A stretch of 64,000 bases of DNA from Isurus oxyrinchus (lineage: Eukaryota), in contig JANJGN010000036.1 in assembly GCA_026770705.1 (NCBI GenBank), positions 1,488,001 to 1,552,000 of the forward strand, written 5' to 3'. The position numbers were made by a program, and so were the translations under genes. Shown here piece after piece: positions 15,949 through 63,840 of the stretch (positions are counted from its first letter, which is position 1; every line of letters starts with the position of its first letter). The notes below the pieces were generated by a model. It had not been told where the DNA came from, searched no databases, and was given only the letters and a program-made list of their open reading frames with translations.

Positions 15949-16122
15949 GTCCTAACAAAAACAAAAACAGAATTACCTGGAAAAACTCAGCAGGTCTGGC
16001 AGCATCGGCGGAGAAGAAAAGAGTTGACATTTCGAGTCCTCATGACCCTTTGACAGAACTTGAGTTCGAGTCCAAGAAAGAGTTGAAATATAAGCTGGTC
16101 TAAGGTGTGTGGGTGGGGGGCG

Positions 16123-16154
<32 letters not shown>

Positions 16155-16969
16155 GGGGGGGGGTGTGGTTGTATGGACAAACAAGCAGTGATAGAAGCAG
16201 ATCATCAAAAGATGTCGACAACAATGGTACAAAAGAACACATAGGTTGGTGATATTATCTAAACGAATGTGCTAATTAAGAATGGATGGTAGGGCACTCA
16301 AGGTATAGCTCTCGTGGGGGTGTTTTTTTTTAATTTTTTTTATATATAATGGAAATAGGTGGGAAAAGGAAAATCTTTATAATTTATTGGAAAAAAAGGA
16401 AGGGGGAAACAGAAAGGGGGTGGGGATGGGGGAGGGAGCTCACGACCTAAAGTTGTTGAATCCAATATTCAGTCTGGAAGGCTGTAAAGTGCCTAGTCGG
16501 AAGATGAGGTGTTGTTCCTCCAGTTTGCGTTGGGCTTCACTGGAACAATGCAGCAAGCCAAGGACAGACATGTGGGCAAGAGAGCAGGGTGGTGTGTTAA
16601 AATGGCAAGCGACAGGGAGGTTTGGGTCATTCTTGCGGACAGACCGCAGGTGTTCTGCAAAGCGGTCGTCCAGTTTACGTTTGGTCTCTGCAATGTAGAG
16701 GAGACCACATTGGGAGCAACGAATGCAGTAGACTAAGTTGGGGGAAATGCAAGTGAAGTGCTGCTTCACTTGAAAGGAGTGTTTGGGTCCTTGGACGGTG
16801 AGGAGAGAGGAAGTGAAGGGGCAGTTATTGCATCTTTTGCGTGGGCATGGGGTGGTTCCATAGGAGGGGGTTGAGGAGTAGGGGGTGATGGAGGAGTGGA
16901 CCAGGGTGTCCCGGAGGAAGCGATCCCTACGGAATGCCGATGGGGGTGGGGGGGGGGGGTGAAGGGAAG
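15949..16969 (-). mobile_element. 5'-truncated Penelope-like retroelement (GIY-YIG endonuclease end and 3' region)
   Basis: ORF 16440-16769: FTCISPNLVYCIRCSQCGLLYIAETKRKLDDRFAEHLRSV...ACHFN. It interrupts a duplicated block. AGTTAA is repeated at 15943-15948 and 16970-16975. Confidence 0.9.
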
Positions 16970-38610: not shown

Positions 38611-41439
38611 GCCCTGTTGCTGTTAACAGTTTCCAGAAATAACTGAAATATTATTCGGCCTCTGTGTGTTTATTGTGCTTTGGGGAAGGGTCACCAGTTT
38701 CACCAGAGTCAACACTGATTTATGAAAGTAAACGTTTCCTTGGCAATTCTGTTGCAACTTTTTTGATGTTTGTGGCTGGCAGGGTGAATAAGGGGCAAGA
38801 GTGGAGGTAGTGCATTTGGTTTCCACGTCAGTTGATGTACCCTGTATCACCGAAACCTACAGAGGTGCAGACCAAGAGCTGCAAAATTGTAATAGATTGC
38901 AGAGCTCTTCACTTCTGGGCCAGCACGGACACACTGTGAATAATGGCTGTAAGGATGTGAAAATAAATTCTCTCGTTTATATTGTTTGTGTTTTAATGTT
39001 TTTTTTGTCTAGGACCAAGAATCCGTGTGAGGAATTGAGAAAACATTCTTGGAAACATAATTAATAAAAAACTTTCAGCAAAATCAAAAGTGTCAGGTTA
39101 AACATTGACAATGTATTGTAGAGGAGTTACAGAGTACAGCAAAGTTTATCTACTCCCATTCTGAACGGGATTACAGTCTGATAACTGAACCAACTGTGCA
39201 CATTGCAGACTGAAATAATCCCCAACTACCATCTCCTGTCGATATCACCATGGGGAATGAGGAGAGAGCTCATGTACAGGGTGAGGTGGTAAAAGAACGA
39301 ATGCAACACCCGATCAATCTGTGCACCCTGTTGCAAACTTCCCCTTAAGGTATTGGTCAATATTCACTCTTCATCAGTCTTTTTGCAGATGCACCCCCCC
39401 CTAGACACCTCCCTCCCCCTGCAACCCCCACCCCCCCCAACACCCACCCCCCCCCCCCCCCCCCACCCCCCGTCCCCGTCCCCGTCCCTGCATTAGGAGT
39501 ACGGAAATCTAACCTGGGAAGAGGAGGAGCAGGGCGCAGAGAGTGAAGACGCCCATTGTCGGCGGCCGAGGCTGTGGCTGAAGTTGTGATTTTCACATTC
39601 GACACTTATTTCTCTGCGGGGTCGGAAGCCTCAATCCAGGCGGGGAACCGGGTGAAACAGTGAAATGCGGAACGCGGAAATTGGGCGCTACCTTTTAAAC
39701 ACAGGCGGTTGGAAAATACAGCAGGAGGTAAACGGTGACTCTGATCTTCCTCTTTACTCGCTCAGCTCCCACACACAGGTCTTGCCTGCAAAGCGATTGA
39801 AGAAGTTCACCCGCTGCTGTATTAAACGGTTTGCAACATATCCTTGTGCCCACTGCAGTCAGCAGCGGCTGTAACTCTGAACAATAAACTGCTGCTTTAA
39901 GGCGGAACACATTCGGCCTTCATAAAGATTGTAGAAATGTTTCGGTTCTTTTGGGGTGTATCAAACACTGGTGAGGTTGGTCCCATTTATTTTATTCTTC
40001 CATTCGTATTTGATAAATCATATTCCGTCTTTGGAAGGGGAGGTTGTGGAAGTTTTGACTCCCTTGGAATTAAGCACAATATGAAAGCTGATGCTTTCAA
40101 AAGCAATTACTGAGCACAGGAGATTTTGACCTTCCGGAATCCCATGTGAGGGCAATGGACTGAGGGCGCGTCCGTCATCTTAATTTAACGTTGAGTGGGT
40201 TGTGGGGGGTGGCGTTTATGCTTTGGTTCTGTTTGATTAAACAAATTGTAACCCCGTTGTTTAGAAATAATGCCGGCAAGTACTTCCTCACAGAGAAGGC
40301 ATTGGAAATCTGCGACCCATTCGTTTTACAGCAGGAAATTGAAACTAGCAAGTTTTTGTTGGGATTGTTGGGCGAGAGAATGGAATTAAGACACAGACCA
40401 AAAACGACATTCCTGAATGGCTGTAGAGGCTCACGGACTCCTCATGTTCCTAGGCTCTGGGACATGGATGGCTGCATCGAACATGTACCCATCCTGGTAA
40501 CATCAGTCGACACATACTGCAAGCTCTATTTAGAGTAAATGTTCTCCTTATTCTAGTTAGCGACTTAGGGTTCCTTACAAAGGATTTCTTTTGCTGGGAT
40601 AATTTCAGGCGTGGAGCTGGCCCGATTTCTGGTCTAATATACACGGACAGGGTTTGCAACGCTTAAAATGAAGCAACAGGACTTCTCTCTGGGATCTCAG
40701 AGCAGTTGTGCAGTTAATGTTGTCCATCTTGGATATTCGAGCCAAAATTATGAAGAAGAGTAGCTAGAAAATATAATAGAGAAAACAGTTAAGGCGTGAG
40801 AGATGTGCAAGTCACTCTGTTAATGCAACCGATTCAGTACTTTGAATTACATACAATGCAAAGCACAGAAGCAGATCATTCGGCCCATTTAATTCTGTCA
40901 CTGTTTATCCTTAAGACAAAGCTTTACCCATTGTTATGAAAGGGCAGATGAGGTGTGCCAGGCAAATCCACGAGGGAAAGTTGGTCGCTCCCTCACAAAG
41001 GCTTCACAATTTGTACGTGTTACGAAATCTGTGCACTGAATTCAGAAGTAAAACGTCCACCAAGGCATTTAGAGATTTTTAAAAAGTAAATGAAAATGTT
41101 CATTAACAAAATGAAAGGTGTCTAGCTCATACATAACGCCACGGTTACGACTGTAATACCTCCTAACAACCCTAATTAACCCGACCCCCCAGTTACACAC
41201 CATTTAAGGCAATGTTCCAAAATAGATGTTACTTTTGAAACAAACTCAGCATTTAACACAATATCCTGGACAGTGGAATTCAAAATTGATTTTCCCCAAC
41301 TTCGGTTTTGTTAAATTGCAGACTTATTGCACAAATCCTTGAGACTTCATTAAGTCTACTTCACACATTCTTGTTAGATCCTACATGGCATGGTGACACA
41401 TAGAATTTTCTTTTCCTTTATATATCTGCCTCCCTTACC

Positions 41440-42259: not shown

Positions 42260-42371
42260 ATGGAATTGACTGCAGAACGAAAGACTGGTTACTTCACAAA
42301 GAAAATGCTTGAAGCATTTTACGGCATCAGGAAAGTGTACTACACAATCCTTGCCATTATTGGTGTTCCAG
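42260..42371 (+). CDS. GPR139-like class A GPCR exon 1 (N-terminus and first part of TM1); no partner exon on + in this window
   Basis: (MELTAERKTGYFTKK)MLEAFYGIRKVYYTILAIIGVP, phase-1 donor CCAG|GTGAGT. The YYxxLAIIGVP ending fits exon 1 of the two-exon GPR139/142-like receptors I recall as expanded in sharks. Confidence 0.75.
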
Positions 42372-43322: not shown

Positions 43323-45943
43323 GATGGTGCAATTCGGCCCTTATTGTTAGCATAATTGTCCTGGTGATGCTCTTGGTCGTTATTTCCATCAGGATTAGTA
43401 AAAGTGGCAGATCAGATGAGGGTTAATATTCATCAGGGATGTTTTTTTTTCTCTATCTGATTCGCTTCTCGCAGTTTTAAATTGCTAATTTACTTTCTGC
43501 TTCCAGGATAACGCGACAAGAGATCCCACAATGAAAATTGAGTAACTGAACCATTTGAAATGTTCACATCGAACAGCATCTCTATATTTATGACTGGGTC
43601 TAACCCAGTTCAACCCCAACAATGATTCCAATGGTATATGCTAACGTTTTTCATGAGCTTTTAAGATTAATACGAACAATTTTCTTCTCAGCTAATTTTG
43701 GCGCCCACGCCAGGATTCACAATACATAACACGTATTTGAAATTTTTGTTCGCATTCAGGTTTAACCTGGGAGAGAGAAGACAAAGACAGCGACAGAATG
43801 AGGAACAAACGGGTAAGTCCCAGTGACATGTTGGCACTGGTTAAATCTCAGTGGGTGGAATAGGAAAAAAGCGTAAGAGCATTTACCGCCATCAAATTGT
43901 TCCACAATCACAGGGCTTTCTCTGGGTCCCATGGCAAATGTCATTTTCTGATTACTAAGGGTGGAAATAATACACCAGTTGGGCAATAGTCGCCAGGCAC
44001 TTTTGGTAGACAATGCTTGTCTATCCATTGGCGAATTTAACTTCACTGAAGTGTTGAGGAAACTTCCGTGTATTGGGCGGACCTCCTGTGGATTGGGGGC
44101 CTGTTGACATTTTGGGGTCATTTTGTGCATTGGCAGAACATTAGCGAATGGTGAATTTGTAAGAATTGTGGAATAGCCAAACAGGTTTAACATTTCAATT
44201 TATAACTTAACCTTTAATAACACAGATGGCCATCGTCAAATAGAGGCAAAGCGAGAACATCGGGATGCAAGACAGGTAAGGTTTTTGAAATTGCTGCAAG
44301 AATATGCAAAAGGTCGTTTTTTTGGGGGGGATAAGAATCAAGGCTTCCCAAGTTGATATTTCATGCGCTTGTCAGAGAGCAGGCCACAGTCTGGAGAACC
44401 TGATTAAAAACAAAAATCCCACTCGCCCTTACAAATGGAACCTGAAAATATTCCCTAGCTCCTCTCCCCATCTGAAAATAGAAAGGAGAGGTCAAACTTC
44501 CACGTAGAATGTCTCCGTCACACTTAACGGTGGAGTTCCAGCAGTTCATATTTTAGATTTCTGCTATTTTCGTTTATGTTTCCATTGAGTCGTACCCCGC
44601 TCGCTCAATTCCCATCTTTTCTTTCCTTCAACTCAACCGAATTCGTACATACATTAGCCAATGGAATTACTGGGAAGATTTGACCAAACCCCGGGGCGTT
44701 TTATAGATAAATCAAAATGTGCTTCTGTTGTAAGCGGGCTAAGAAGGATCAGTTTGCGCAGAAAGTCTGTGCGTATGTGTGTTTGTCTGTGTGTGTGTGC
44801 GCGCGTGTGTACAGAGACTTCAGCACATAGTCTAGGCTGAACATCCAGAGCAAACGTTGCACTGTCTGAGGTGCGGTTTTCGCATGAAACGTTAAACCGA
44901 GGCCCTGTCAGCCCTCTCAGGTCGGGATAAAAGGTGATTCCGTTATTATGGCAAACGGAACAGTGGTGGGATGTTGGAGGAAGCGGTGTGCGAGGGTTGG
45001 GGGTCGGGGACGGGTTCTCTCTGCTTTCCGGTTTCATATTTGATCTCTGAACCAGCACCTCAAAAATAAATGATCTAGCTCATTAATTCATTGCTGTTTA
45101 TGGAGCCTTCAGGTACGTAAGTACTCTACCGCGTTGCTTTGAAAACTAAGGCTTCACGTGAAAAGAGTGGATGTGAAGATTATTAGGTTTCTGCAGTTCA
45201 TCAGAGGGGCTACATAAGCACAAGTCCTTTGATTGCATTTGGGTCATTCTTCTGAATGTGATGAATTCTGTGGGCTCTACTTAATCGTGTAGATGGCACA
45301 TGATGAAACTTAGTAATCGGATTGGCCAATTAACAACAAAGTAATCCAAATGAAATTCATAGACTGGTTATTCAAACTGTTTATTCCCAGTTGCTTTGCA
45401 CATGCTGTTGCTCGGTTGCAAAACATCAATTCAGGCAATTCTTTCAGATTCAAATAGCGGAAAAATTCCTCAATTTGATATAGAGGGCATGTGAAACCCA
45501 TTCAATAGCAACTTTCAAGAAGGAATTATAAACATAATGAAAAGAGAAAATAATGTCAGCGGTAAGGGGCTGACAGGGGTACAGTTGGCCAAACTATGTT
45601 TTTCAAAGAGCTGGTACAGACGCAATTGTCTCAAAAAGCCTCCTTCTGTGCTGTATCATTCTATAATTCCATGTAACGTAGTTGCGAGGGTGGATAATTT
45701 TACTTATCCTTTAACTACTTTTCACTGTTAATGTTTGATATCTCTCCCAGAATCAAGGCGGACCTCTCTACGCCTCCCCGGACTTGACAGCATTGGATAA
45801 CAGATCAAAAAAGAAGGCAGGTCGTAGATGAGGATCGGGCCGTTTTCTCTCTGATGAATTATGGAGGAGACAGGATTTGCCAAAGAAACAACAGACTTCT
45901 GGAAATAAACATGGAGCCAAGGAGACTCCCATCAAAAAATTAA
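43323..45943 (+). pseudogene. Decayed IgSF/SIRP-like receptor gene A: TM exon and four cytoplasmic exons
   Basis: Exons 43323-43421 (WCNSALIVSIIVLVMLLVVISIRISKSGRSDE, phase 1-1), 43507-43541, 43760-43812, 44226-44275 and 45751 onward (NQGGPLYASPDLTAL...). All have AG acceptors and the internal ones GT donors. The last four join in frame; one frameshift at the TM/cyt1 junction. Confidence 0.6.
44820..45230 (+). mobile_element. DeuSINE (SacSINE1-like)
   Basis: CTAGGCTGA...GCACTGTCTGAGGTGC...GTTAAACCGAGGCCCTGTC.GCCCTCTCAGGT...ATTGCTGTTTATGGAGC...GGCTACATAAGCACAAGTC. Inverted remnants at ~52560-52835 and ~62400-62550. Confidence 0.7.
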
Positions 45944-47589: not shown

Positions 47590-49574
47590 TATTCTTATGA
47601 CTCGTGAGACAAGTTGCCCTCTGGGATTTCACTTGCTCAGTGAATTACACTCTTTAAGGTTGTAAAATGCACTTTAAAAAGCAATGGTCACAAACCTTAT
47701 TTTTCAATGTTAATGTTTATAATATTGCGTGTATAAAGCAAAGATATTAGGTCACCTCCGTGAAGCATCCTTTGAATTCCACTTACAAATTTAACAATGT
47801 ATTTTAGTGTGAAGACGAAGTTCCATTATTGACGTACACAGTTCAGAGCAAAGGGCTTTCAGTCACTGCTCATGTATTCTGCTTTACAAAATTCAAATTT
47901 ATTTTCAGAACAGAAGCAGGCCATTTAGCCCCTCTGCTCATTCCTGGTCTTTCTGCTCCACACGATCCTCCTCCCACACCCTCTACACCCCAGCAACATA
48001 TCTTCATATTGGTTATGTATTTATCCACCTTCCTCTTAAGTGCATCTTAGCTATTTAAGTCGGCCACTTGCTTTGGTTGCCATTTATGCCTTCTTTCCTT
48101 TCTTCTGGTAGAATTCCTGAATTCGTTTTTGGAATTATTAGTGAATATCAAATGTTGATCTCCTTTAATATAGCTCTGCCTGCAAATGGAAACGTTGACT
48201 CTCTGCCTCAACATTAGAAAGTAACCCTTCAATCTTTTGTTTTGAGGAGAAAAGAGGCCCAGACTGTTCAATCTTGCCTAATATCATAAACTATCAGTTA
48301 TGGTATCATTATTGGAGAATTGTTGCCACTTTTGAACCGCACATATCTGGTCAATAAAGATATCCTGTAACTTGCCATTGCACATTCACTGAGCATACCT
48401 GCACTAAGGATCAAACAGCCTGATTCCCAAATACAATCTTGGGTGTCAAAACGTCTTTAATGGATTCCTAAACTGTACTCTGATGCGCTCATTCCTGTTA
48501 AAGCGCGACACAAAGATACACAATGAACTTAGAAACAACATGGCAGGAAAGTAAAACTATATTGTAACTGAACAGAAAGCTAAGATTCCCGAAAGCCAAG
48601 TTAAATTTGAAACGTAGTCTACTCTGTCAGACTTGTTTACTCTTCAGTTGGTGACGAATCTTCGGGATGTATTGCTCATTATTATTAATAAACGTGAATT
48701 CAGCCGGGAACAGAATTTGAGATGGCTGTCTCTTGGAAATCCTCACACCTCCAGGCTTTCCTCTAATAAGTCCACAACAGAGGAAAATTTCCAATGCGCA
48801 TCAATGGCCGGAAGCATAACTTTAGCTCTCAATATCTTTTGCAATGATACTGTGGGATCCGCAATAAACGCCAACCGAGCAACAAGAGACAGTAAAGCAA
48901 AAGGCAAACAATTATCGTGAGCTACACCATTATCAGCAGGCCGTTCAGTTCTTTGAGCATGTTCTGCCTTTCAAAAGGATCTTTCCATCCATAGTTACAG
49001 ACTTGTCATGTACTCGTGCTCTGGAATGTGTCAGTTCATGTTCCTGATAGAAACTGGATTTTAATTGGTCTTGAAATGGCCACATTTCACATTCAAACGG
49101 CCGAAGGTGCCAACAACTCAATGATACATGGAGGCATTGAGAGCGCCGTTGAGCTCCAGCATCTCCCTGTAAGCGTTTCCTGTCGGCCAATCCCTGGGAT
49201 TCCTTCTCCCGACCACAAGAGACATCCTAGAAAGAGAAACCCGCGGCAAACGATGTCCCAGAAAGCGGGAGCTGCAGGCGGTAGGGAGCAAAAATTTAAA
49301 AATGACCTTATATTTCGGAAGAAATCCAGCAACCCGAGCCTTCTGACTCTTGCACAAGGTTCAAATAGGTACAACACCACCTATAGAGCGCAGCTCGGAA
49401 TGGGCAATCAACGTCTATCTTTTCACTGTAACCAACATAACCAAGCATGATTAAAAAACATTTGAAAATGATTAGATAAGGGAAGGAGATTTTCAAATTT
49501 GAAGATAAATTGATGGATAGATAGAGAGCGACAGTCACATGGACAGTGTGTGAGAGAATGAAAGTGAGAGGGAG

Positions 49575-50200
49575 ACGGATGAATGTATAGATAGATAGTT
49601 AGATAGATAGATAGATACATAGATACATAGATACATAGATGCATAGATGGATATATCGATAGATGTATCGTTAGTTAGATGGATGGATAGCTAGATAGAT
49701 AGATAGATGGATGCATAGATAGATAGATGCCTAAATAGATAAATGTCTAGAAAGATAGATGGATCTCTGGATAGATACATAGATGTTTAGATAGATAGAT
49801 AGGTAGACAGGTAGATAGATAGTTAGATTGATAGATAGATGTCTAGATAGATGCATAGATAGATGACTAGGTAGATAGATAGAGAGATAGATAGATGGGT
49901 ATGTTGATGGATAATTGGATAGATAGTTGGATAGATGGATGGATAGATGAATCACAAGATTGATAGATAGATGGATGGATAGATGGGTCACAAGATTGAT
50001 AGATAGATGGATAGATGGATGGTCACAAGATTGATAGATAGATGGATAGGTAGTTGCATGGATAGATGGATGGATAAGTGGATGGATAGATAGATGGATA
50101 GATAGATGGATGTTTAGATAGACAGATGACTATGTAGATCGATAGATGGATGTCCAGATAGATAGATGGATGTCTGGATAGATAGATAGAATGAAAGAAA
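49575..50200. repeat. (GATA/GATG)n tetranucleotide array; paralog at 59940-60410
   Basis: Visible directly. Confidence 0.95.
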
Positions 50201-50639
50201 GATACATTGGATGCGACCGCGAATTACATAGATATATTTATAATATACAAATGCATCAATACTTACTGGAACCCCAGGCAGGTTCTGTTCGCTGTATAAA
50301 TGTTAACTGTCCACTCGGACACTTCTAGAAAGAACAACCTCTTTTAAATGCGTTAAGCATGACTACACTTTCGCAAATTGGCACTGGCTGTCCTTAACGG
50401 ACCCGTCTATTTATGAGTTCTCACCATATTAATTTACAATAAATTTTTCTCATCGTTTGGCGGCCATGCGTCAAAGTATAATTATCTTATAGCCATCCAG
50501 CGAATTCCTTTATTATTTCATGGGTGAAACCTTATGTGGAGACCGTTTTTCAGGAAGGATATAGATTGCGGTTTTTGCGAGGCTAGTGATATTCTTTGGG
50601 CTGTATATTCACTTCAAATAAATCTTTCAATCGGGTAGC

Positions 50640-51330
50640 AGAGCAGAGGGTGCCCATGTACAGGCACAAAAGTCATTGAAAGTAGTGAGAGGAGATAAAA
50701 AAAATATTTTAAAAAAGGCCCAGCAATGTAAAGTACAAAAGCGACATTCACCCTATATCAAAACCTAGCTTGATCACACTTAGGGTCCTGTGAACATTTC
50801 TGGTCTCCATATCATAAAGAGATTATAGAGACACAGGGAAAGGCACAAAGAAGAAAAATTTTACTGGAAGGATAACAAAACTGAAAGGTGATAACAGTCA
50901 GGGATGTATGAACAGGTTAACTTCTTTTTTGAGAAATGAGTAGACTTTGAGGTGACCTGGTGAATGTTTTTAAGACTATGAAAGAGATTTTCGGGCAGGC
51001 AGAGAGAAGGAATTAGCGTTTCTTTTGAGAAACCAGTACAAAAAGCCATCAATTTTAGGTAGTCGATAATGAATCCAATCGAGAATTCAGGTGAAACATT
51101 TTAACCAGAGTCCGGGGATATTGTGGAGCTCGTTCCCATAGGGAGTGCTTTAGGTGAATTACAGAGAAGGAATAAAGGGTGATGCTGTATAAACACATGA
51201 GGGAGAACGGAACAGAAGGATATGTTGATAGAGGTCAGGTGAGGAGGGGTGGTGGGAAGTGCTTTTGGAGCAGAAACACCAGCATCGAGCCAAATGATAG
51301 AATACAATATTTCGGTGCTGGTAGTTCTAT
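50640..51330 (+). mobile_element. Decayed CR1 3' end (paralogous copy at ~61130-61860)
   Basis: CR1-like 3' sequence; both copies lie inside the 49.5/59.9 kb duplication. Confidence 0.6.
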
Positions 51331-54300
51331 GGAATAGAGATAATGAAATAGAGGAATCGAGAAAGTGTAAACGAAAATTGGGATTTATGTAATCATGTCA
51401 AAATAGCTTACCTCTCTCCATACCCTTAATTCCAAAATACACAGATGGAATTAAAAAATCAGAAAGCTAAACACTGAAATGATGAGATGCATGAGAGCGT
51501 ATTAAGCAGTGAGAAAATGATACGTGGACAAATATAAATGTAGAGATTTAATATACAAAGAAATATTGCTAAGAAATAGGCCATACATTAAATACACAAG
51601 GCAACTGTTTTCAGCTAACTCTCTGAGATGAGAGACTTTCATTTGGAAGATATACACTGGAGATGATTAGATCGACGCATGTACAGAGAGCGCCGCTGCT
51701 CCAAGTTACTTCCAGAGAATTATACAATACCTGATGCCGTAGGTTCCGTTCGGGTCGATTGTTGTGGGCTCGCTCTGTCCCTAGGGCTCCCTCCCGGAAA
51801 TATTCCAGTGGACCGCAAAGGACTCGGGGCGCACACTCTTCGCCAAACACTCCAAACTAACGATTTACATCGAGAGAATTTCAGCTGGAGGCGGAGTTAA
51901 AAGTTCGAATATTGGAGAACTTGATGGGATCGAGCGGTTTGTTTTGATCGCTTTTGGAGATTGATTATTTAATGTGTAAAGTAATCTTAATTTGTATCTG
52001 TGAAGAGCAATTTTGAGCCATTTCCAAACGTAAAGATCATTCCCCTGATCTTCTTAGCTGCAGAGTAAAACATGCCCGAATCACTGGCCTGGGCATCCAC
52101 AATATTCAGAGAACAGAGAGTAGATTCTCGTAAAATTCTCCAGATTATCAACCGGTTTGAGAGTTGTATTCTGCCACAGTGTAAACTAGTCGCAGATGCG
52201 ACCGGTGGTTATTTCTTTCCAGTCCACCGCTCCCTCCCCAACAGCACCAACCAGGCCGTGTCACAATGAATCCTGTTTTACTCCCAAGTGAGAACAGCCG
52301 GAGTCTGGGACAAAACTGCCTGAGATAAAATAACTGAGAGGTGTCACACCAACACGCTGGGTTCTGCTATGGCAGGCAGAGAGAGAAAATATTTGTTATG
52401 AGGAAACGGCCAGAACAGTGAAATATATAATAGATCATTCACTGGTTATTTTACGCTAATGGGGTCAAACGTTGAGGATTAAATTTGAAACAATAACATG
52501 ACCACGACGGAAAGAGAGGCGCATCAAAGACGAAGGAGTGCGGTCTCTGTTGTCACCTGGGAAAATTGGAAGCTGTGACTGCGCACAGCAAGACACACAA
52601 TTTACAACGTGATTATGAGCCAGGTGGTAACTATAATAATGTTTATGGAGGGTTAATATTGGACACAAGGACACGGGGGAACTCCGGCGCCTGACTGCAC
52701 CCCACTCCCCCCACCACCCCCCCCCCCCCCCCCACCTCCCACCCAATCCATCCGTTCACCCGCTAATAGTGGCCCTGGGAATCTTTGCGTCCCAAAAGTG
52801 GCAAACAAGGGGTCTCGGTTTAAGGTATCATCCGATGGATTCGAGAATGTTGACAAGTGATCGCTTCTGATGTGGTTGACATCATTCAGTGCTTAAACAT
52901 AAAGCTAATATTTTAGAATATCGGTATGGAGAAAATTTTCTACTCGGCTGAACTATCTCACTGGGGTTAAACCATCCTGAATGAGGTGTGAAGAAGGCTC
53001 AAAGGTGTAACCAGATGCAGCAACGCAAAGGACATTAAGAAGTTCTTGGTCTCCGATCCCGGGCCAGTTGCTTTGAGATTTGCACCGGCTCTTCGCTCGG
53101 GTGTCTCTGTTCTCAGCTCCGGCCTCGGAAGACGTGGTGAAAATACATATTTGGCGGAAATGATTTGCAACGTTTAAAAATAGCTCACTGGAAAAATCTG
53201 CGCGATGTAAATTTTAGTTGAGGGTTTCCTGTTTACAGCTTAGGAGATCACACACGGGTCTGCCTGCAAAGGGCAACACCCTACGTATCCTGGAAAACAT
53301 GCGTCACAGGCAGTGCACATTACAGGCTTGGGACAACAGGCAGTTGAGCTGAAATGAACAACATTATTGCTCATGAAATTCAAGTGGACAGAGGGGAAAC
53401 GCCCCTAAATAGGAACGTTCTGGTTAATTCACAGAGACAACATTAATTTATGTGGTTTCAACAAAAAGAAGAACAGGTGCAAAAAAGCTAGAAGATGATG
53501 CTAATATTTTAGGGAATCTGTCATCCCGCCTACCTCTCTGTGTCAGAATTACTCCTGTGGTTTAGCGGAGCTTCGGCCATCTGCCCTGTGGTGTTTCTCG
53601 AAAGGTCGACCCTTCTCCGACCCCTTCTTCATCGCACCCCATCAACGTATCATTCTATTCCTTTCTCACTCCTGATTGCCCAATCAATGAATCCCTCCGA
53701 TTCAGCTCGACCACTCCTTGTCACAACGAGTTGTACATTCTCACCACTGTATGAATAAAGAGATTTCTCCAACATTCCTGATTGCATCTACTGGTGATTA
53801 TCTTATACTGATGGCCCCTATTCTTGTCTCTGCCACAAGTTGGAATATTTTCTTTACGTCTACCGTAGGGAGTACATTCATAATTTTAAAGACATCTATC
53901 AGGTCACCCGCACAGCCTGCAATTTTCAAGAGGAAAGAGCCCGAGCCTGTTCAATCTTTCCTGATAATTTTAACCTCGAAACCGGGGAAAACAGTTTCGT
54001 GCCCCAATGCAAACCATGTAATCTGGTGTAAATTAACGAGCATTTTATGATATCCTGAATCATCCAGGTATCGATAATGGGTGGAAAATCGGTAAATAAG
54101 ATTCACTTGCAGAATGATCCACGACTAAAATCTTATGCAATCTTTTGGGCAACACATTTATAGGATCCTCTATCTGATCTGTCTTGAAGAATAAATAATA
54201 CCAGTGAACACTGTCAGAGAACGGTAATCTGCTAAAATCTACAAATCCCTCATTAACGTTTTTGAATCCGTTATCATATATTTCAAACCATTTTACATTT

Positions 54301-54388
54301 GTCTCTGAAGGACTCGTTAATATTCCTTGTCTCAGAGCAGATTAATGATGCACTTTAACGTTTCTCAAACTTCGATATGAATTGAATA

Positions 54389-56537
54389 TGACCTCATCTC
54401 CTCTGGGGATCTTCCTCCCACAGCTTCCAACCTGATAGTTGGCCAAACTCGGACGGCCCGCTTCTATCTCCTACCCAAAATCCACAAACAGAACTGCCCC
54501 GGTAGACCAATCGTCTCAGCTTGCTCCTGCCCCACGGAACTCATTTCTCGTTATCCTGACTCGCTTCTCTCTCCCCTTGTCCAGTCCCTTCCCACCTACA
54601 TCCGTGATTCCTCTGACACCTTATGTCACATCAACAATTTCCAGTTCCCTAGCCCCAACCGCTTCCTTTTCACAATGGATGTCCAATCCCTCTACACCTC
54701 CATCCCCCGCCAGGATGGTCTGAGGGCCATTAGCTTCTTCCTCGAACAGAGGCCCGAACAATGACCATCCACCACTACTTTCTTCCGTCTGGCAGAACTT
54801 GTTTCACACTGAACAATTTCTCCTTCAACTCCTCTCACTTCCTCCAAATAAAAGGTGTGGCTATGAGTACCCACATGGGCCCCAGCTATGCCTGTCTCTT
54901 TATGAGGTATGTGGAACATTCCTTGTTCCAGTCCTACTCCGGCCCCCTTCCACAACTCTTTGTCTGGTTCATCGATAATTACTTCGGTGCTGCTTCATGA
55001 TCTCATCGGGACTTGGAAAAATTTATTAATTTTGCTTCCAATCTCCACCCCTCCAACATTTTCACGTGGTTCCCTTCCTTGACCTCTCTGTCTCAATCTC
55101 TGGTGATAGACTATCCACCAATGTCCATTACAAACCCACAGACTCCCACAGCTACCTCGACTACAGCTCCTCACACCCCGCTTCCTGTAAGGACTGCATC
55201 CCATTCTCTCAGTTCCTTCACCTCCGTCGCATCTGTTCCAATGATGCTACCTTCAAAAACAGTTCCTCTGACATGTCCTCCTTCTTCCTTAACCGAGGTT
55301 TTCCATCCATGGTCGTTGACAGGGCACTCAACCGTGTCCAGCCCATCTCCCGCGCATCCACCCTCACGCCTTCTCCTCCCTCCCAGAAACATTATAGGTT
55401 CCCCCTTGTCCTCACTTATCACCCCACCAGCCTCCGCATTCAAAGCATCATCCTCCGCTATTTCCACCAACTCCAGCATGATGCCACCACCAAACACATC
55501 TTCCCTTCACCCCCCCCCCCATCGGCATTCCGTAGGGATCGCTCCCTCCGGGACACCCTGGTCCATTCCTCCATTACCCCCTACTCCTCAACCCCCTCCT
55601 ATGGTACCACCCCATGCGCATGCAAAAGATGCAACACCTGCCGCTTCACTTCCTCTCTCCTCACCGTCCAAGGGCCCAAAAAGTCCTTTCAAGTGAAGCA
55701 GCATTTCACTTGCATTTCCCGCAAATTAGTCTACTGCATTCATTGCTCTCAATGTGGTCTCCTCTACATTGGAGAGACCAAACGTAAATTGGGTGACCGC
55801 TTTGCAGAGCACCTGTGGTCTGTCCGCAAGAATGACCCAAAACTCCCTGTCGCTTGCCATTTTAACACTCCACCCTGCTCTCTTGCCCACATGTCTGTCC
55901 TTGGCTTGCTGCATTGTTCCAATGAAGCCCAACACAAACTGGAGAAACACCACCTCATCTACTGACCAGGCACTTTGCAGCCTTCCGGACTGAATATTGA
56001 ATTCAACAACTTTAGGTCTTGAGCTCCCTCCTCCATCTCCATCCGCTTTCTGTTTCCCCCTTCCTTTTGTTCTTTTCCAATAAATTATATAGATTTTTCT
56101 TTTCCCACCTATTTCCATTATTTTTAAATATTTTTAAATCTTTTATACTCTCCCTACCCCCACTAGAGCTATACATTGAGGGCCCCACCATCCATTCTTA
56201 ATTAGCACACTCGTTTAGATAATATCACCAACTTTAACACCTTTTGTTCTATTGTTGGTGACATCTTTTGATGATCTGCTTCTATTACTGCTTGTTTGTC
56301 CCTACAACCACACCAACCCCATCCACTTGTCTCTCTCTCTCTCTCCACGCACCCCCCCTCCCCCCCCGCCCCACACACACACACACACACCTTAAACAGG
56401 CTTATATTTCAACTCTTTCTTGGACTCGAATTCAGGTTGTGTCAAAGGGTCATGAGAACTCGAAATTCAACTCTTTTCTTCTCCGCCGATGCTGCCAGAC
56501 TTGCTGAGTTTTTCCAGGTAATTCTGTTTTTCTTTTG
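54389..56537 (+). mobile_element. Penelope-like retroelement (RT + GIY-YIG), 5'-truncated and disrupted
   Basis: RFYLLPKIHKQNCPGRPIVS, TMDVQSLYTSIP, KGVAMSTHMGPSYACLFM, PFLDL..YKPTDSHSYLDYSSSHP and LVYCIHCSQCGLLYIGETKR. GATATGAATTG flanks both sides (54374-54384, 56538-56548). Confidence 0.93.
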
Positions 56538-56974
56538 GATATGAATTGGTTCATTAAGTTCATCAACCAGGTTCTCCGGTGGGAGCAGAGTGAGCGTCTG
56601 ATGAAGCTTCTCCGTTCCTGCCCTCTACCCTTTTTTAGAGCTGAGGAGCTGTGGTTTGGAAGCAGCGTGAGCAGAGCCTCCTTGCAGTGACTCGCCAGGT
56701 AGATTTGCATGGTAAAATTAGGATGTCAACCTATTCAATCAATTCCACCCACTACACGACCCACACCTAAATCACGTGCTCTCGGTGCCTCATCAATTTT
56801 CAGCGCTGTTGGGGAGGCAGTTCCAGGATTTTTACCGAGTTACTGTTGAAGAACGGTGATATATTTCCAAGTGCGTATCGTGAATGGCTTGGAGGGGAAC
56901 TCCCCGGTCGTGGTGTTCCCATCTGTCTGCTGCCCTTTATTATATTGGTGGACAGCAACACTTGGATCCACAAC

Positions 56975-57130
56975 ACAAACAAAGATAGTTGGAAAAACTC
57001 AACAGGCCAGACAGCATCTGTGGAGAAGAAGATTCTGATGAAGAGTCAGGCGGACTCGAAATGTTAACTCCGTCTGCTTCTCCACAGCTGCTGTCAGACC
57101 TGCTGAGTTTGTCCAGCTATTTTTGTTTTT
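56975..57130. mobile_element. Short palindromic non-autonomous element related to the Penelope-like 3' terminus
   Basis: Left arm AAAGATAGTTGGAAAAACTCAACAGGCCAGACAGCATCTGTGGAGAAG is an imperfect reverse complement of right arm CTTCTCCACAGCTGCTGTCAGACCTGCTGAGTTTGTCCAGCTATTTTTG; it resembles 56470-56530. Confidence 0.7.
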
Positions 57131-57151
57131 GGCACAGATCCACACCAGCTC

Positions 57152-58056
57152 TTAGTTATTTTGTTTATTAATGGATTGAATAATTAATATAACCGGATAT
57201 TTCAGCATGCTCTTTAACTGCTGCCTAAACTTAGAATGAGTCGCCCCATAAATAATGATTGCATGCAGCAAATTAAATCCACCAGCATGTATCCAACTTT
57301 TCAAAGCTTATATAAAGACCCTACAGAATTATTGGGATCAGACCCTGTAATGACATGATATAAAAATCAACGATTCTGTCTGTCAACCACAGAAGTAAGA
57401 AACTGCCAGGTATGGTGAAGAGTAAAATCACAGACTTCCTTCTGCTCTCCTTCTCTGCGTCACTGGGAGAATTTCCCTTCCTCTGGCCTCTCAGTCCCTT
57501 ACAACTCGACAGGCAACAAAAACATATCTGGCAGTCAGAACGTTAAAAAGCAGAATTAAAACAAATTGGAACAATGGGGTTAAAAACATATCAAACAAGT
57601 CAAACCAACCCACCGGGGCTCAGTGAAATAACTTGTCTTCATCATACAAAAGAACAGCACTTTCTCGATTGTCTTTCCAGCTTCATATGTAAATTAGGCA
57701 GGAACATTTTTAAAAAAAGAATAGAATGCTGGTTGTTGCTCGAATTGCAACTGCGGTTTTATCGCAATATTTCAGTTTCACATGGCTGCAACAGATATCC
57801 ACATATCTATCAAAGGAGAAAGTGACGGTGAATCAAACAGAACATTCTCTTGCTGCACCAATCAGGACAGCGCGAATAACATACACAGTGGTGATGTTCA
57901 GGAAGCTCATGGGGGATTACTAAAAATGATCTGAAAGAGTAGGATCTCGGTGATAATGACCAGTAGATCGGCCGTTGCCATGGCCACAAGGTAGCACGTG
58001 GTGCAGACGGAGGCCACGCTTTCTGCTGGACAGGGTCATAATCGCTACTAAATTAA
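57152..58056 (-). pseudogene. GPR139-like GPCR exon 2 (TM1-TM7 and tail), multiply disrupted
   Basis: Acceptor (T)9ACAG, then (V)NLVAIMTLSSRKRGL/CTTCYLVAMATADLLVIITEIL...SV*FTVTFSFDRYVDICC...LTPLFQFVLILLFNVLTARYV...ESRRKSVILLFTIPGSFLLLW...IYGATHSKFRQQLKSMLKYPVILIIQSINKQNN*. DRY motif intact; several frameshifts and stops. Confidence 0.88.
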
Positions 58057-59659
58057 CTGTAAAAAAAAACAAGGGGAAAACACTGCACATTATTGATGAA
58101 ACATTCTGCGAGAACCAGGCAGTAAACATGGTGGCCTGGTCAGATGGCTGGGAGTCTCAAAAACATCTTGAAATCTCCTTCAGCCTGCTCATTTCAATGT
58201 TTCGCAGAGTAGGGAGAGGGGACAAGTAGCAGGCTGCATGCAGGAAGCATTATGGCATATACATTATTTTAATAAGGCTGGCAAATTCTATTGTAACCCA
58301 GTTTACGATTTTTCATTGGCCAATTATGATTTCCACACCTCAGATTTGCAGGAGTGGAAAAGAGCTGAGGATAGCTATGGACAAATGGCGTGTATTTTCA
58401 TCACTTATTATTGATCAGCAGGAGCAAAAGTGATTCCAGCCCCACTCGGGTCCACTAAACGCAGTCAGACATCAACATGAAAATTATCTCAAAGATCTCT
58501 GCACAATAGGATTCAGTCATGAGTACCTGTTTTCATTACCAGGCATTGTACACACCCCCTGGATCCAAGATTGGACCTCATTGCCGATAAAGCCTGTTAC
58601 GAAGTCCTCCTCACTTTACTGGAGCACCGAACCAGGAAGTGCCAACCGTGAAGTCGTACTTCATCTAGGATTGTCTATATGGCATTATAAAGTCAGTCTT
58701 AACTAACACTGTAGTTCTGCCTGACCATACGTGTGAACGTTTATTTGACAATATTGCAGTTGCTTCATTCTGTGTTTCAAGCGTGCTGTAATTGTCCTGG
58801 GGTATTCCAGGAGGCAGTGTACAGGGAGCTGAATTCTATATCTAACAAGTGCGGTACCGAGCATATTGATCTTCTATGGGGCATTGTCCACGGAAATTTA
58901 TTCTGTAACTAAGCTCTACTGTACCTACTCTCGAGTGCTTAATGGGGCAGTGCAGACGGGTCATCGCTCTGCATCTAACCCTGTGCGGTACATGTCCTAG
59001 AAGTTTGTCTTTGTTCTGTTAATGATTTGCACAATATCATTAGGGATAGATGCTGCTTGTGGATGAAGTGGGCCACTTAGCAGGAAGAGCGCTATCGAAA
59101 CGAAACATCAAGGTAGTAAACACTGGATCACGTTTGTGGCAAATGGGATAACAGCAGACAACATTTCGGAGGCAGCAGTCAGTGGTCCGTGTATGGATTC
59201 GGGGAAAGGGCAGGACGCTGAGTTCCGGGATGAGCAGGGCATTTCGTAACTTGACCCGTGATGGGAGTGGAAAGGCTGTCCGAAGCAATTCGGGGGCTTT
59301 CTGGACTGAAATAGACAGTTTCGCGTTAGTTAGCGTACTTATCGCTTAAATATTGACCCAGCGTCAGTGTTGAACATGCAATTTGAGAACAAGGCGAAAA
59401 CGTGGGATCACTGGACAAGGTAAGATTTGTGGCTGGTATATTTGCTGTAACTCGTCACTCGCTTTATTATGTTCCCTGACATGGTGGAATCCATACATTA
59501 AAAATCATCAAGGGGGCCAAGGACATGACCCAACCCGAGAAGATTCTTGGGCCTCCCCTGAGGAAGTAGTTGGAGCACATGTGCACACACCATACACAGG
59601 CAGTGTAATTGTAGGGGAATGGCGAGGGATACCTAACATTGCCCACAGTTGGCAGTTCC

Positions 59660-62600
59660 ATAGCTAAGGATCCTATTAAAAGACTGAATGAGGAAACACA
59701 GAACAGTGTGGCAGCTCCCTCTGCTCGGGCATCGGACTGGACTGCGAGCAGAATGAAAGCTATATGGCGAAGGGAAGTAGAAATTTTCTTGAAATGGGCA
59801 TTTGGAAGCACAGAAACTGGCAGCGTTGCAAGTATTGCTCCTTTAATCCGGGAGCACATAGGCCAGCTTTGCATTTTGTTCCCAAACTTCTGTCGGGTAG
59901 CTCTTCGTTTTTTTCTACAATATTAGGATGCTTCAGTCGATAGATGGATAGATTGGCTAGAAAGATAGATACATAAAGAGAGAGAAAGAGAGAGAGGCTA
60001 GATAGATCTATAGGCAGACTGACAGCGACATGGATAGATCGATAGGTAGATAGATAGATAGATATATAGATGGATAGATAGATATATGGATAGATAGATT
60101 GATTGACTTATTATTTGATAGAGCGGTGGATTGATACATTGATTGATCGATAGACATATAGAAAGATAGATAGGTGGATAGAGAGATAGATAAATAGGTA
60201 GATAGATAGACAGAAAGAGAGCTATATATATATATATAATGGAGAGAGCTAGACAAGATAGATAGATAGGCAGACAGTCAGATAAATAAATAAATACTTG
60301 GATGGGACGTCAGATAGGTGGACAGACGGATAGACAGACAGACAGACACACAAATAGATAGATAATTGGAAGGATAGAGAGATTGAGAAGGGTAAATAGA
60401 TAGATCGATAAGCACAACGACGCCATGGAGTGAACTATAGATGCATAGGCAAATTTATTAAAACAAAATAAGATGATGGAACAATACAACAATGTCCAGC
60501 ATAGTGTACGACACAGACTGAGGCAATGAAGGCCTCTATGTTTCTGCTGACTATTTGATAAATTCATTCAAAGCTTTTCTCATTACCCACCTCTCGATCT
60601 TACATCAATTCCAAACTTATCCCAAAATCTCACCGGTATGCAGCACTGCCAACCCTCAACATGAGGGATAGTGATTTCCTCTTGTCTGTATCTGTGCATA
60701 TATCCGTCTTCCTACACCTCTTTCACACTGGACGCATTATTATTTCACTTAAAAATATTGATAGACGTTTGAAGGCCTGTTAGAAATCCATACACGTTCT
60801 ATCTATTGCTTTCTATTGGCCTGTCCATTCCGACACTTCTTGAAAATTAAACCTCTATTAAATGTGTTCAGCATGACAATACTTTCACAGATCGGTGCAG
60901 GCTGTCCATAATGAACCCATATATTCGGAAATGCTCACTAATTCCATTTATAATAATTAATGCTAAGGGTGTGTCCGCCACACATGAAAGACGAAGTAGT
61001 TTACAGTAATCTGGCGGATTTCCTTCTTTGACTTGGATGAAACGCTATTTGGAGACCATTATGCCAGATAAATTAACTTTTGGGGTTTGGGTTAGGCTTT
61101 GTCCGAGGGTGACGGCTACACACATTGGAATATAAGAGTTTAAGTAAGATAGAGGAACAGAGGGTTCTGAGGTGCAGACACGAATATCATTGAAATTGGT
61201 GCCAGAAGATAATAAGGTCAAAAAGATCACAGGCCCACAGTCTGCACATCCCTACATAAATAAGCATGTAAAGGAAGGAAGGCCTTTATTAAACGGATTT
61301 TAAGACTTAGCCTGACAAAACATAGGGTCCTGTGAATAATGCTGGTATCAATATCATGCAAGATAATACAGAGAACGGGGGAAAGTGAAAAAAAAGGTTC
61401 ATTGTACTGATTCAGAAGTGAGAGGTTGTAACATCGGGAAAGTTTGAACAGGCTGCATTCTTTTCTAAAGAAAATAAATGACTGAGGTATGACCCAAGAG
61501 CTTCAAGATTATTAAAGGATTTTTCAGGCAGGCGTAGTCAAGCTCTTTGCACTTTTTCGTGAGTCCAGAGCTCGAAGCGATCAGTATCAGATAATCGCTC
61601 TTAAATGCAAGCAGAAATTGAAGAGAAATCTCTTAACCCAGAGAGCGGGGAGAATGTCGATCTCGCTCCCGCAGGGAATGGTTGCGGTCACTTGCAGGGA
61701 TGGATTTATGGGTGAAGTTGTATAAGCACATGAGTGAGAATGGACGAATAGAATATGTTGATGGGGTGAAATGAAGAGCGGGCGGGAAAAGATTCGTGTG
61801 GAGCAGCAATACCAGCACCGATGAAAAGGGCCGAATGCACTGTTTCCGTGCTGGAAACTCAATGGAGTAGAGGTGATGACTTAGAGAAATTGGGAGAGAA
61901 ATTGGTAAACAGAAAATTAGGTTTTAATTTTATCATTGACGTTTCAAAATAACATATCTCCCTCCATTGACTTTTACACTAAACACACAGATAGATTTAA
62001 AAATTCAGAAAGCAAAACACTGAAGCGATGAGATATATGAGAATGGAGTAAGGGGTCAGAAATTATACAAAGGTACATGATCAGAGAATAGAGACTCCAT
62101 GTGCCGTTAACTTCCCCCGAAAATACACTTGTTAGATGGTTATATTCTGTCACTGTGTAAACCAGTTGCAGGTGCGCCCGGTTTAGACAAGGGGTCCGCC
62201 CCCGCCCCCGCCCCTCCTCCTCCCCAGCACCGTCATCTAAGCCGTGCCATAGTGCACCATGTAGCTACTTCCAAGCGAGAGAATCTGAACCGCCGGAGAC
62301 CGGGACAAAACTGCCTGAGATGCAATAAGTGAGAGGTACAAAAAACAAGACCCTGGGTTTTTTTATGGCAGGGATAGAGAAAATTATTTCCATGAAGAAG
62401 CGGCTACAACAGTGCGGCAGAGGAAACTGCGCAGAACAACACCCACAAATAAGAATGCGCTTGTGACACAAATTATGCCTTTAATGATGTTGATCGCGGG
62501 ACAAAAATGGGCCCCAGGGACACAAGGGGGCGGGGGAACTCTGCTCCCACCCGCGGCCCCCACCACTACCACCCCCCCCTCCCCCCCCACCGCCGCATAC

Positions 62601-63840
62601 ACATATGCACTCACTGGAAAAAGCAGCGCGTTGCACGTTTTAGCTGAGGGTTTCCTGTTTACAGTTTAGGAGACCACACGCGGCTCTGCTGCAAAGGGCA
62701 ACATGCTAAAGATCATGGTAAACACGCGTCACAGAAGGAGCGCAGCCCAGACTGGGTCAAACTGAGGTCAAAAGGCAGTGGTTCTAAATTCAACAACTTT
62801 GCTCTTTATGATATTAGCCTGAAGGCAGGAAAAGTCTCCTAAATAGCATTGTTATTTTTAATTAATCGAGAACAGATTAATTTATTCTGGTCTCAACAGG
62901 AACACAACAGATTGAAGAAACGTGGAATCAGATGCTAATATTTTAGTAACTGTTGGTGTGGCTGTGTGAGTGCGGCGACCCTCTCTGGATCCCGGTTGCG
63001 ACTGAACAGCCCCATCATTTCGTACTCTTCTGTTTGATTTTCCTTCTCTTCATGAGTCATAAAACCCATTGGAAATGCAGGTATACAAAGAGGGTTTTAG
63101 GCCTGCTGCCTCCTATAAAATATGGAACTAGATGCCAGTTTGCACTTTTCAATCCACAAATAGGAAAAATTATGAATGAAAGTGCGAACTAAACGTATAG
63201 CGTATTCTTAACACACCCAAACAAACATGTAACTTGCTTAAAATATCTGTTTCCTAACTTCAGCCATCATCCGATTGAATTCCAGATCCAACACAAGAGA
63301 GGAACTGAACGGCCTTCTCCTTCTCCAATGTGCCTGTCGGATTAGCCATTCAGGGTATTAGGAGGACTGATGTCTGATGGTCGATGAAGCACCGAGTGAT
63401 CAGCTCACAGAATGGTTCGCTGGGTGGGGTCAATGGTGAAGCGGTTGCGAACCCTCTGATTTTTATTCCTTTAAGAAACAGTTGTTTTCCTGCATGTTGG
63501 GGAGGACAGAACCTTGCCCGATATATGAACTGTGCTTAGCAAATAGACGTTTTCCACCTGCATCTTGTAATATTTGTCCCGAAATACTCTCGAAATACCT
63601 GTACATAATGTCTCTTTACTTTAGAATTAGCGATTAGGGAGTGTTTCGATCTGTTCAGGACAAGTATCACAAGGGGATCTGCGGATCAGAGTTTACTCGC
63701 CAAGAAAACTGTCCAGTAATCAGCACACGAAGGGATTCCAGGGCAACTTTTTAAATATTTACGATATTAAAGTTGTTATGGAAATGTATCACATCATCTC
63801 ACAGAAACATCATCTCAAACTTACGTTAGCGTTTGACTGA
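59660..63840 (+). pseudogene. Decayed IgSF receptor gene C (paralog of B)
   Basis: C1-like C-SGI-GL-TASRMKAI-W at 59722-59767 (1-nt frameshift). TM-exon end GYILSLCKPVAGAP|GT at 62180. Exons 62276-62324 (donor ATAAGT) and 62665-62717 join in frame. Candidate tail exon from 63659 reads RVYSPRKL...NIYDIKV. Confidence 0.4.

What the first reader, a model, noticed from the sequence alone, without database searches (positions are those of the whole stretch)
48648..63840. Tandem array of decayed C1-domain IgSF receptor genes (B and C) sharing architecture with gene A
Seen: 49.5-53.5 kb and 59.9-63.0 kb are diverged direct duplicates (GATA array, CR1 3' end, inverted DeuSINE, shared unique blocks). 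Among the clearly conserved unique blocks are exon-shaped ones: a phase-1 exon end (..ILPQCKLVADAT|GT vs ..ILSLCKPVAGAP|GT), an 84-95 nt intron (85 nt in gene A), an exon ending in phase 2 (GTKLPEI/M), and a phase 2-1 exon starting LGDHTR. That exon is 53 nt in C, the same length and phases as gene A's FNLGE exon. Upstream lie C1-like remnants (LECVSS..KLDFNWS*NG; CSKLLPENYTI; CSGIGL-TASRMKAIW). Inference: a birth-and-death cluster of at least three C1-type receptors linked to an IgL cluster, possibly an undescribed shark receptor family.
Basis: partly seen in the sequence, partly recalled or inferred. Interest (0 to 1): 0.7.

Follow-up and report, generated by a model that had tools for sequence, protein, structure and literature searches.

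The report
Dead copies of shark TCR-like receptors
These are broken copies of a shark gene for a cell-surface receptor built like one T-cell-receptor chain but fixed in the germline; this branch is broken in every copy checked here yet has an intact gene model in horn shark, and it lies inside a very large cluster of likely inhibitory receptors that are predicted to work in pairs.

Summary
B is a complete minus-strand pseudogene (leader, germline-joined VJ, C1, TM, tyrosine tail; family-HMM C1 E 2e-16). C keeps only the promoter and two-thirds of V. The plus-strand 'exons' are the reverse complements of the V exon and the promoter. Three of the four proposed C1 remnants give no Ig signal. Gene A is a broken TM/tail stub of the partner subfamily, left at a roughly 92-kb tandem-duplication junction. 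All belong to a non-rearranging VJ-C1-TM family with about 190 V exons on this contig; 25 of 55 D-type genes sit head-to-head with an A-type gene. Relatives occur in other sharks, rays, lungfish, turtles and sturgeon. It is probably the PRARP family (paper not held). The B/C lineage is broken in 52 of 52 V exons, shares lesions among copies, and has an intact horn shark model, so most copies likely multiplied after the gene died. This scan found the family before on other DNA, including this contig; I did not see the dead-lineage result among the notes returned.

The parts
53150..53330 (-).
   Evidence: Aligns with the region upstream of the leader ATG in D- and E-type genes and shares an AAAC/GAGGAA (ETS-like, label recalled) motif; 40 listed paralogs, all on C36
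53005..53047 (-). Gene B: leader exon, start codon and splice donor lost
   Evidence: Aligns with the 43-nt leader exons of D and E genes; reads KNFLMSFALLHLVT
51998..52333 (-). Gene B: germline-joined VJ exon ending FGNGSKLLFT; several frameshifts and stops, donor lost
   Evidence: Frameshift-aware alignment to horn shark P0061 covers residues 1-111 of 111, score 193 vs shuffles at most 33, opposite strand 25; family HMM E 1.2e-8
51619..51920 (-). Gene B: C1-set exon; 2 stops, 1 frameshift, donor lost
   Evidence: Score 228 vs shuffles at most 41; family HMM E 2e-16; a paralog's contig from a probable RNA run leaves the alignment at 51619 and continues in D-type TM-exon-like sequence
49180..49290 (-). 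Gene B: decayed transmembrane exon (approximate ends)
   Evidence: DNA alignment to the D-type TM exon, z 19; the protein-level alignment did not beat shuffles
48998..49058 (-).
   Evidence: EHELTHSRARVHDK vs DEELPDSRPRAQEK, score 29 vs shuffle max 27, weak alone; DNA z 3.5 and expected position
48783..48891 (-). Gene B: last exon and 3' flank; the tail tyrosine is lost (LVARLAF vs LYARLAF)
   Evidence: Score 41 vs shuffle max 19; DNA z 12
49587..51516 (.). Gene B: C1-TM intron with GATA array and old repeats, the main part of the B/C duplication
62610..62760 (-). Gene C: promoter block; the leader exon is deleted
   Evidence: Aligns with B's promoter, then diverges before the leader; B 52740-53183 has no counterpart in C
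62081..62328 (-). Gene C: 5' two-thirds of the VJ exon; a deletion removes the rest of V and all of C1
   Evidence: Alignment runs into post-C1 intron sequence after 'SLYSLIM'; same break in the copy at C36:644.9 kb; no C1 or TM hit with DNA profiles of 51 and 63 paralog segments
59939..62062 (.). Gene C: remnant of the C1-TM intron with GATA array
59350..59930 (.). Cluster-specific sequence with no Ig homology, lying between C-type remnants and GPCR genes; not a C1 remnant
   Evidence: 16 hits, all on C36; no Ig hit in six frames
43323..45827 (+). Gene A stub: TM (43323-43415), cytoplasmic exons (43507-43537, 43760-43812, 44226-44275) and last exon (45751-45827). No leader, V or C1. TM donor AT at 43416, stop TAA at 43509, donor TT at 43538
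   Evidence: Alignment to the intact-looking A gene at C36:625-632 kb; 40 listed paralogs on C36
42835..42838 (.). Junction of a recent tandem duplication of about 92 kb (98-99% identity) that cut gene A between C1 and TM
   Evidence: Window 42835-64000 matches a copy 94 kb upstream; window up to 42838 matches a copy 90.5 kb downstream
57200..58080 (-). Frameshifted GPR139-like GPCR main exon between B and C
   Evidence: 74% identical to an open paralog on C21 that is Pfam 7tm_1, E 9e-21, best PDB hit GPR139, E 6.5e-13
42305..42371 (+).
   Evidence: Hits at 70-80% on C21, C44 and other contigs that also carry the GPCR main exon
39491..39793 (-). Orphan promoter and leader exon of an E-type family member; its V and C1 are absent from the window
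   Evidence: 89-90% identical to E-gene leaders; leader matches basking shark P0056 at 13 of 14 residues

Best explanation
B and C are minus-strand pseudogenes of a non-rearranging VJ-C1 membrane-receptor family, and most of their lineage's copies likely multiplied as dead passengers of duplicated blocks. Shown: B retains all six exons in order, each damaged; C retains only the promoter and part of V; gene A is the broken TM/tail half of the partner subfamily. Shown: intact-looking relatives on the same contig come as A-type and D-type genes, often head to head about 4 kb apart, each with a one-exon VJ domain, one C1 domain, a membrane-proximal cysteine, a TM segment and a tail tyrosine motif. 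Inferred: A and D chains are co-regulated from the shared intergenic region and pair as a disulfide-linked, Fab/TCR-shaped germline receptor that signals inhibition through the tail tyrosines (about 55%). Inferred: B was an alternative D-side chain with a different V domain; it was inactivated early in this shark's lineage and then copied more than 50 times because it sits inside the duplicating A-D cassette. Inferred: the family is the shark form of PRARP (about 70%).
For: B aligns over the full V and C1 of intact horn shark P0061 (XP_067878575.1) on the minus strand only. In a V-domain tree, B, C and 8 other copies group with horn shark P0013 at 98/95 support, apart from D and A. 0 of 52 B/C V exons and 0 of 39 B C1 exons are open, against 45 of 47 full-length D V exons without a stop and 34 of 58 full-length A V exons. 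Shared lesions: a 1-nt deletion near V nt 63 in 20 of 52 copies, another near nt 206-208 in 20 of 52, and TGA at C1 codon 73 in 15 of 23 non-redundant copies vs TGG in 9 of 9 D copies. B C1 divergence is flat across codon positions (0.243/0.240/0.252) vs 0.119/0.094/0.145 in D. 25 of 55 D V exons have a head-to-head A V at 3.6-4.5 kb; random placement gives a mean of 3.5, maximum 11 in 2000 trials. The membrane-proximal Cys is invariant in 17 of 17 aligned proteins. Contigs from probable RNA runs join D-type V to C1 across a GT..AG intron. Predicted A+D complex: 0.56 vs best control 0.01, weak support; contact agreement at least 84%, partner pLDDT at least 77; at 0.60 or under this mark was reached by 5 of 78 solved complexes and by all 4 mismatches that passed.
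Against: No single lesion is shared by all copies, and window B itself has TGG at C1 codon 73 (3 of 23 do), so several independent deaths or gene conversion are possible. Three inverted copies have only one V frameshift. The dN/dS contrast is small (B 0.71, D 0.59). The 52 copies are those I fetched from capped searches, so an intact B elsewhere is not excluded. Many copies fall in 97-99% identical blocks that could be assembly duplicates. 30 of 55 D genes and 49 of 74 A genes have no head-to-head partner within 6 kb. The complex score may come from memory of Fab/TCR structures. The tail motifs (TLYACL/TLYARL, PIYASL/PLYASL) are not canonical ITIMs. No PRARP sequence was available for a direct orthology test. 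P0061 is a predicted gene model.
Confidence: 0.85

Rival explanations
1. One reading: B and C are plus-strand C1-TM-tail genes with the same exon layout as gene A.
For: B/C duplication is real and some GT/AG dinucleotides and the 53-nt length match.
Against: No Ig signal on the plus strand; proposed splice sites kept in 6, 2 and 22 of 52 copies; the same DNA aligns to intact genes on the minus strand; no A-B or A-C exon similarity.
Confidence: 0.02
2. Classic birth and death: B-lineage copies were each functional for a time and died independently, and shared lesions reflect sub-clades or gene conversion.
For: No lesion is universal; three copies have one V frameshift only; dN/dS 0.71 is below 1.
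Against: 0 of 52 V and 0 of 39 C1 exons are open while neighbours are mostly open; identical lesions occur in copies about 24% diverged; flat codon-position divergence.
Confidence: 0.2
3. The dead B/C units persist because they do something: their promoter blocks act as enhancers for neighbouring genes, or their V exons donate sequence by gene conversion.
For: The promoter block is the best-kept part (71% B vs C, 75-84% among listed copies) and survives in C, which lost nearly all else.
Against: Flanking introns are kept at 66-69%, so the excess is small; no conversion tract was looked for.
Confidence: 0.1
4. The family consists of germline-joined IgL or TCR genes rather than a separate innate receptor family.
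For: Best solved-structure matches are antibody and TCR chains; database names say Ig or TCR; IgL clusters are interleaved.
Against: TM exon plus tyrosine tail; V domains form a clade apart from shark TCR V and IgL V, 98/93 (only 6 outgroup rows); the same architecture is found in lungfish, turtles, caecilian, coelacanth, sturgeon, gar and eel.
Confidence: 0.05

Closest known systems
[quoted passage not shown] 2019, PMID 30770416) and Xenopus VJ-C1 genes (Ohta et al. 2019, PMID 31492741). Neither paper was held; titles seen in reference lists; content recalled.
   Same: Two non-rearranging IgSF genes with a one-exon VJ domain (title and passage in PMC10751288). Recalled: V-C1 structure, tyrosine-based inhibitory or switch motif, disulfide-linked dimers, presence in bony fish, amphibians and reptiles. 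The relatives found here have that range.
   Different: About 190 V exons in four lineages (A, D, E, B/C) on one shark contig, with IgL miniclusters and GPR139-like genes interleaved; one lineage broken in all copies checked. Whether those papers already describe the shark cluster could not be checked.
UrIg and UrIg2 (PMC12227049; parts 1-4 of 8 of the main text read, plus passages)
   Same: [quoted passage not shown]
   Different: UrIg has three C1 domains and is secreted; nurse shark UrIg2 has nine; both form homodimers. This family has one C1, a tyrosine tail and two gene types arranged head to head. The paper has no occurrence of 'PRARP' in its main text.
T-cell receptor chains and Ig light chains
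   Same: Leader-VJ-C1 layout, FGxGS J motif in the D/E/B lineages, membrane-proximal cysteine; best PDB matches.
   Different: V and J are one germline exon; long tail with tyrosine; no conserved charged TM residue in the 17 aligned proteins.
SIRP, tapasin-like and NKp30 receptors (features recalled)
   Same: V and/or C1 domains with TM; SIRP-alpha has inhibitory tyrosines.
   Different: One V plus one C1 with a J motif; none of these proteins is among the 60 best PDB hits shown. No direct tree was built.

Membership tests
PRARP / non-rearranging VJ-C1 pair | V and J-like segment joined in one germline exon | tested here: met
   D gene V exon of 339 nt between AG and GT includes FGNGSQL; B V exon aligns 1-111 of 111
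PRARP / non-rearranging VJ-C1 pair | One V-set plus one C1-set domain, then TM | tested here: met
   Pfam V-set and C1-set above cut-off in D, A and P0061; B has both in decayed form; C lacks C1
PRARP / non-rearranging VJ-C1 pair | Cytoplasmic ITIM/ITSM-like tyrosine motif (recalled feature) | tested here: inconclusive
   TLYARL and PLYASL-type motifs conserved in intact proteins but not canonical; tyrosine lost in B; signalling untested
PRARP / non-rearranging VJ-C1 pair | Two linked gene types | tested here: met
   25 of 55 D genes head to head with an A gene vs 3.5 expected; both types on the same-length contig in basking, white and horn shark
PRARP / non-rearranging VJ-C1 pair | Disulfide-linked homo- or heterodimer (recalled feature) | tested here: inconclusive
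   Invariant membrane-proximal Cys; predicted complex 0.56 vs 0.01, weak
PRARP / non-rearranging VJ-C1 pair | Orthology to named chicken PRARP1/2 by tree or synteny | not testable with these tools
   No protein named PRARP among the 25 looked up; papers not held
Ig light chain (rearranging or germline-joined) | No TM or cytoplasmic exons after C | tested here: not met
   TM and two tail exons in D and B
UrIg / UrIg2 | Three or more C1 domains after VJ | tested here: not met
   One C1 per gene
SIRP | V followed by two C1 domains (recalled) | tested here: not met
   One C1 per gene
   All listed hits of three unique blocks are on C36; no repeat library was available

The most novel reading that the evidence does not exclude
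This cluster is a surviving, greatly expanded germline two-chain receptor system descended from the V-C1 heterodimer that the RAG transposon invaded: two chain types head to head, several interchangeable D-side lineages (D, E, B) giving combinatorial diversity without rearrangement, and IgL miniclusters sitting among them as rearranging offshoots. B records the wholesale loss of one chain class in one shark lineage.
Probability: 0.12. Interest if true: 0.85.

Novelty: new variant of a known kind. Interest (0 to 1): 0.47.

Why it matters
B and C themselves are broken and make no receptor. They mark a large shark cluster of non-rearranging, TCR-shaped receptors that databases mislabel as antibody chains. 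One-exon VJ genes are actively sought as relatives of the pre-RAG antigen receptor (PMC12227049), and the candidates described there are homodimers; a paired V-C1 system would be a closer structural match to TCR and Fab and can be tested directly. The dead B lineage also shows that copy number in such clusters can reflect hitch-hiking of dead genes rather than selection for diversity.

Tried and rejected
Plus-strand exon model: rejected. C1 at 42.4-42.8, 48.6-49.4, 59.35-59.93 kb: no signal in 18 frames. I first took the 'LGDHTR' block for B's leader; alignment to D and E showed it is the promoter. Pfam alone barely sees B (C1 E 0.033, V E 0.063) and missed the window's GPCR exon. Expression of A stub: no RNA holder listed. 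Expression of B: four probable RNA runs gave 4 contigs at under 90% identity and no joints; no evidence either way. Rfam 39-64 kb: 0 matches. ESM Atlas on the coelacanth relative gave generic Ig clusters. The D control was contaminated by misclassified copies and was redone with 9 hand-picked D and 23 non-redundant B copies. Five hits were dropped before the count of 52: three D-type V exons and two second fragments. One search was a misaimed search and gave nothing. Literature: searches found no paper describing this shark cluster, but the two closest papers are not held. Seen: PMC12227049 parts 1-4 of 8 and passages; PMC10751288 and PMC11599192 passages only; no supplements, and the supplementary tables of PMC12227049 and PMC10751288 may list these genes.

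Full report
Observation. The window is G000:C36:1488001-1552000 of a 4.98-Gb genome. Self-comparison confirms that 49.5-53.5 kb and 59.9-63.0 kb are collinear direct duplicates at 66-71% identity. Two gaps matter: B 51517-52105 and B 52740-53183 have no counterpart in C. The unique blocks have dozens of paralogs, all on contig C36, so they are cluster-specific and not a dispersed repeat.

Strand. Gene A's TM region has 40 listed paralogs on C36, and these have V and C1 exons upstream. Their C1 matches the window at 51903-51730 on the minus strand (E 5.7e-9). Profiles built from 17 database relatives find, besides the IgL cluster, only a minus-strand V (52136-51999, E 1.2e-8), a minus-strand C1 (51912-51715, E 2e-16) and gene A's TM. 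The proposed plus-strand splice sites are kept in 6, 2 and 22 of 52 copies, the true V acceptor in 42 and the V donor in 25. The 'ILPQCKL' and 'GTKLPEI' blocks are the V exon read backwards; the 'LGDHTR' block is the promoter region; the 'LECVSS' remnant is a tail exon.

Anatomy of B and C. B has leader (53047-53005), VJ (52333-51998), C1 (about 51920-51619), TM (about 49290-49180) and two tail exons. It aligns to horn shark P0061 (XP_067878575.1, 301 aa, leader-V-C1-TM-tail) with scores 193 and 228 against shuffle maxima of 33 and 41. The start codon, the leader, V and C1 donors and the tail tyrosine are lost. C has the promoter and the first two-thirds of V; one deletion removes the rest of V and C1 and is shared with a copy at C36:644.9 kb. 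DNA profiles find no C1 or TM for C.

Gene A. It is the TM and tail of the partner subfamily. Window 42835 onward is 98-99% identical to a block 94 kb upstream, and the sequence before 42838 to a block 90.5 kb downstream. A tandem duplication therefore cut the gene between C1 and TM; whether this junction is real or an assembly product was not tested. The stub also has a lost TM donor, an in-frame stop and a lost second donor. Upstream lies a short exon of a probable GPR139-like gene, and a frameshifted GPCR main exon lies between B and C.

The cluster. Mapping of about 460 kb shows a repeating unit: A and D head to head, then B/C remnants, then the next A tail to tail. Searches list 47 full-length D-type V exons (45 without a stop) and 13 E-type (all without a stop), and 58 full-length A-type (34 without a stop) among 78 matches, all on C36. 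25 of 55 D exons have an A exon head to head at 3.6-4.5 kb; random placement gives 3.5. Contigs from probable RNA runs splice D-type V to C1 across GT..AG. Relatives occur in many sharks and rays under Ig or TCR names. A profile search followed by look-up of 20 full-length hits gave lungfish, turtles, caecilian, coelacanth, sturgeon, paddlefish, gar, bowfin, bichir, eel, Komodo dragon and devil ray.

The dead lineage. In a V tree of 42 rows, ten B/C copies group with horn shark P0013 (98/95), next to a skate protein and the E type, and apart from D and A. None of 52 B/C V exons or 39 C1 exons is open. Two 1-nt V deletions each occur in 20 of 52 copies; a C1 stop occurs in 15 of 23 non-redundant copies; divergence is flat over codon positions. 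Against this reading: no lesion is universal, window B lacks the C1 stop, and dN/dS is 0.71 for B against 0.59 for D. The simplest account is early inactivation followed by passive copying inside the A-D cassette.

Mechanism of the working family (inferred). Head-to-head order, an invariant membrane-proximal cysteine and tail tyrosines suggest a disulfide-linked two-chain inhibitory receptor. The predicted complex of horn shark A and D ectodomains scored 0.56 against 0.01 for the best control, which the tool rates weak; it may reflect likeness to Fab and TCR. Ligand and cell type are unknown.

Comparison and novelty. The closest known kind is the PRARP pair; its papers were not held, so its features are recalled and orthology is untested. 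UrIg and UrIg2 differ in domain number and dimer type (PMC12227049). Earlier notes of this scan reached the same family reading on other DNA and on this contig; they are not independent support. What this window adds is the corrected anatomy and a lineage that is broken in all copies checked here but has an intact model in another shark. Verdict: real feature, wrong strand, broken genes in an interesting but probably already named family; interest 0.47.

Noticed in passing
window 7470-9840 (+): IgL minicluster (V with heptamer-12-nonamer signal, J-like segment near 8190-8210, open C exon). The V has two in-frame stops near its start, so it is probably a pseudogene; a 94-100% twin lies 90.5 kb downstream. 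Isotype not tested.
   Followed up: partly
window 42305-42371 and 43323-43415 (+): The duplication junction puts a phase-1 GPCR first exon upstream of gene A's phase-1 TM exon, so an in-frame chimeric splice is possible; broken donors and a stop would limit it to about 56 residues. No RNA evidence.
   Followed up: no
window 54340-56550 (+): Retroelement with a GIY-YIG hit (E 0.0036), probably Penelope-like; its 3' kilobase is 87% identical to an inverted copy at 15947-16970.
   Followed up: partly
L080, L117-L120 (E-type genes on C36): A further subfamily, 13 V exons at 40-44% identity to D, all without a stop; 4 of 7 sampled C1 exons open; none has a head-to-head A partner within 12 kb.
   Followed up: partly
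G000:C36:1470034-1470132 and 1564171-1564269: A-type genes whose TM contains an arginine (..LNVSRMAAA..), possibly an activating form; both have a stop in V.
   Followed up: no
G000:C36:1555.5-1559.1 kb, just beyond the window end: An intact-looking D-type gene (leader, V, C1, TM open), the nearest candidate working member.
   Followed up: partly
P0061 vs P0005 (horn shark): The B-lineage protein has a distinct V but a C1, TM and tail nearly the same as D-type proteins of that species, suggesting exon exchange or homogenisation.
   Followed up: no
G000:C36 2.0-3.9 Mb: Many hits come in near-identical sets at regular offsets; recent segmental duplication or assembly duplicates inflate copy counts.
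   Followed up: no
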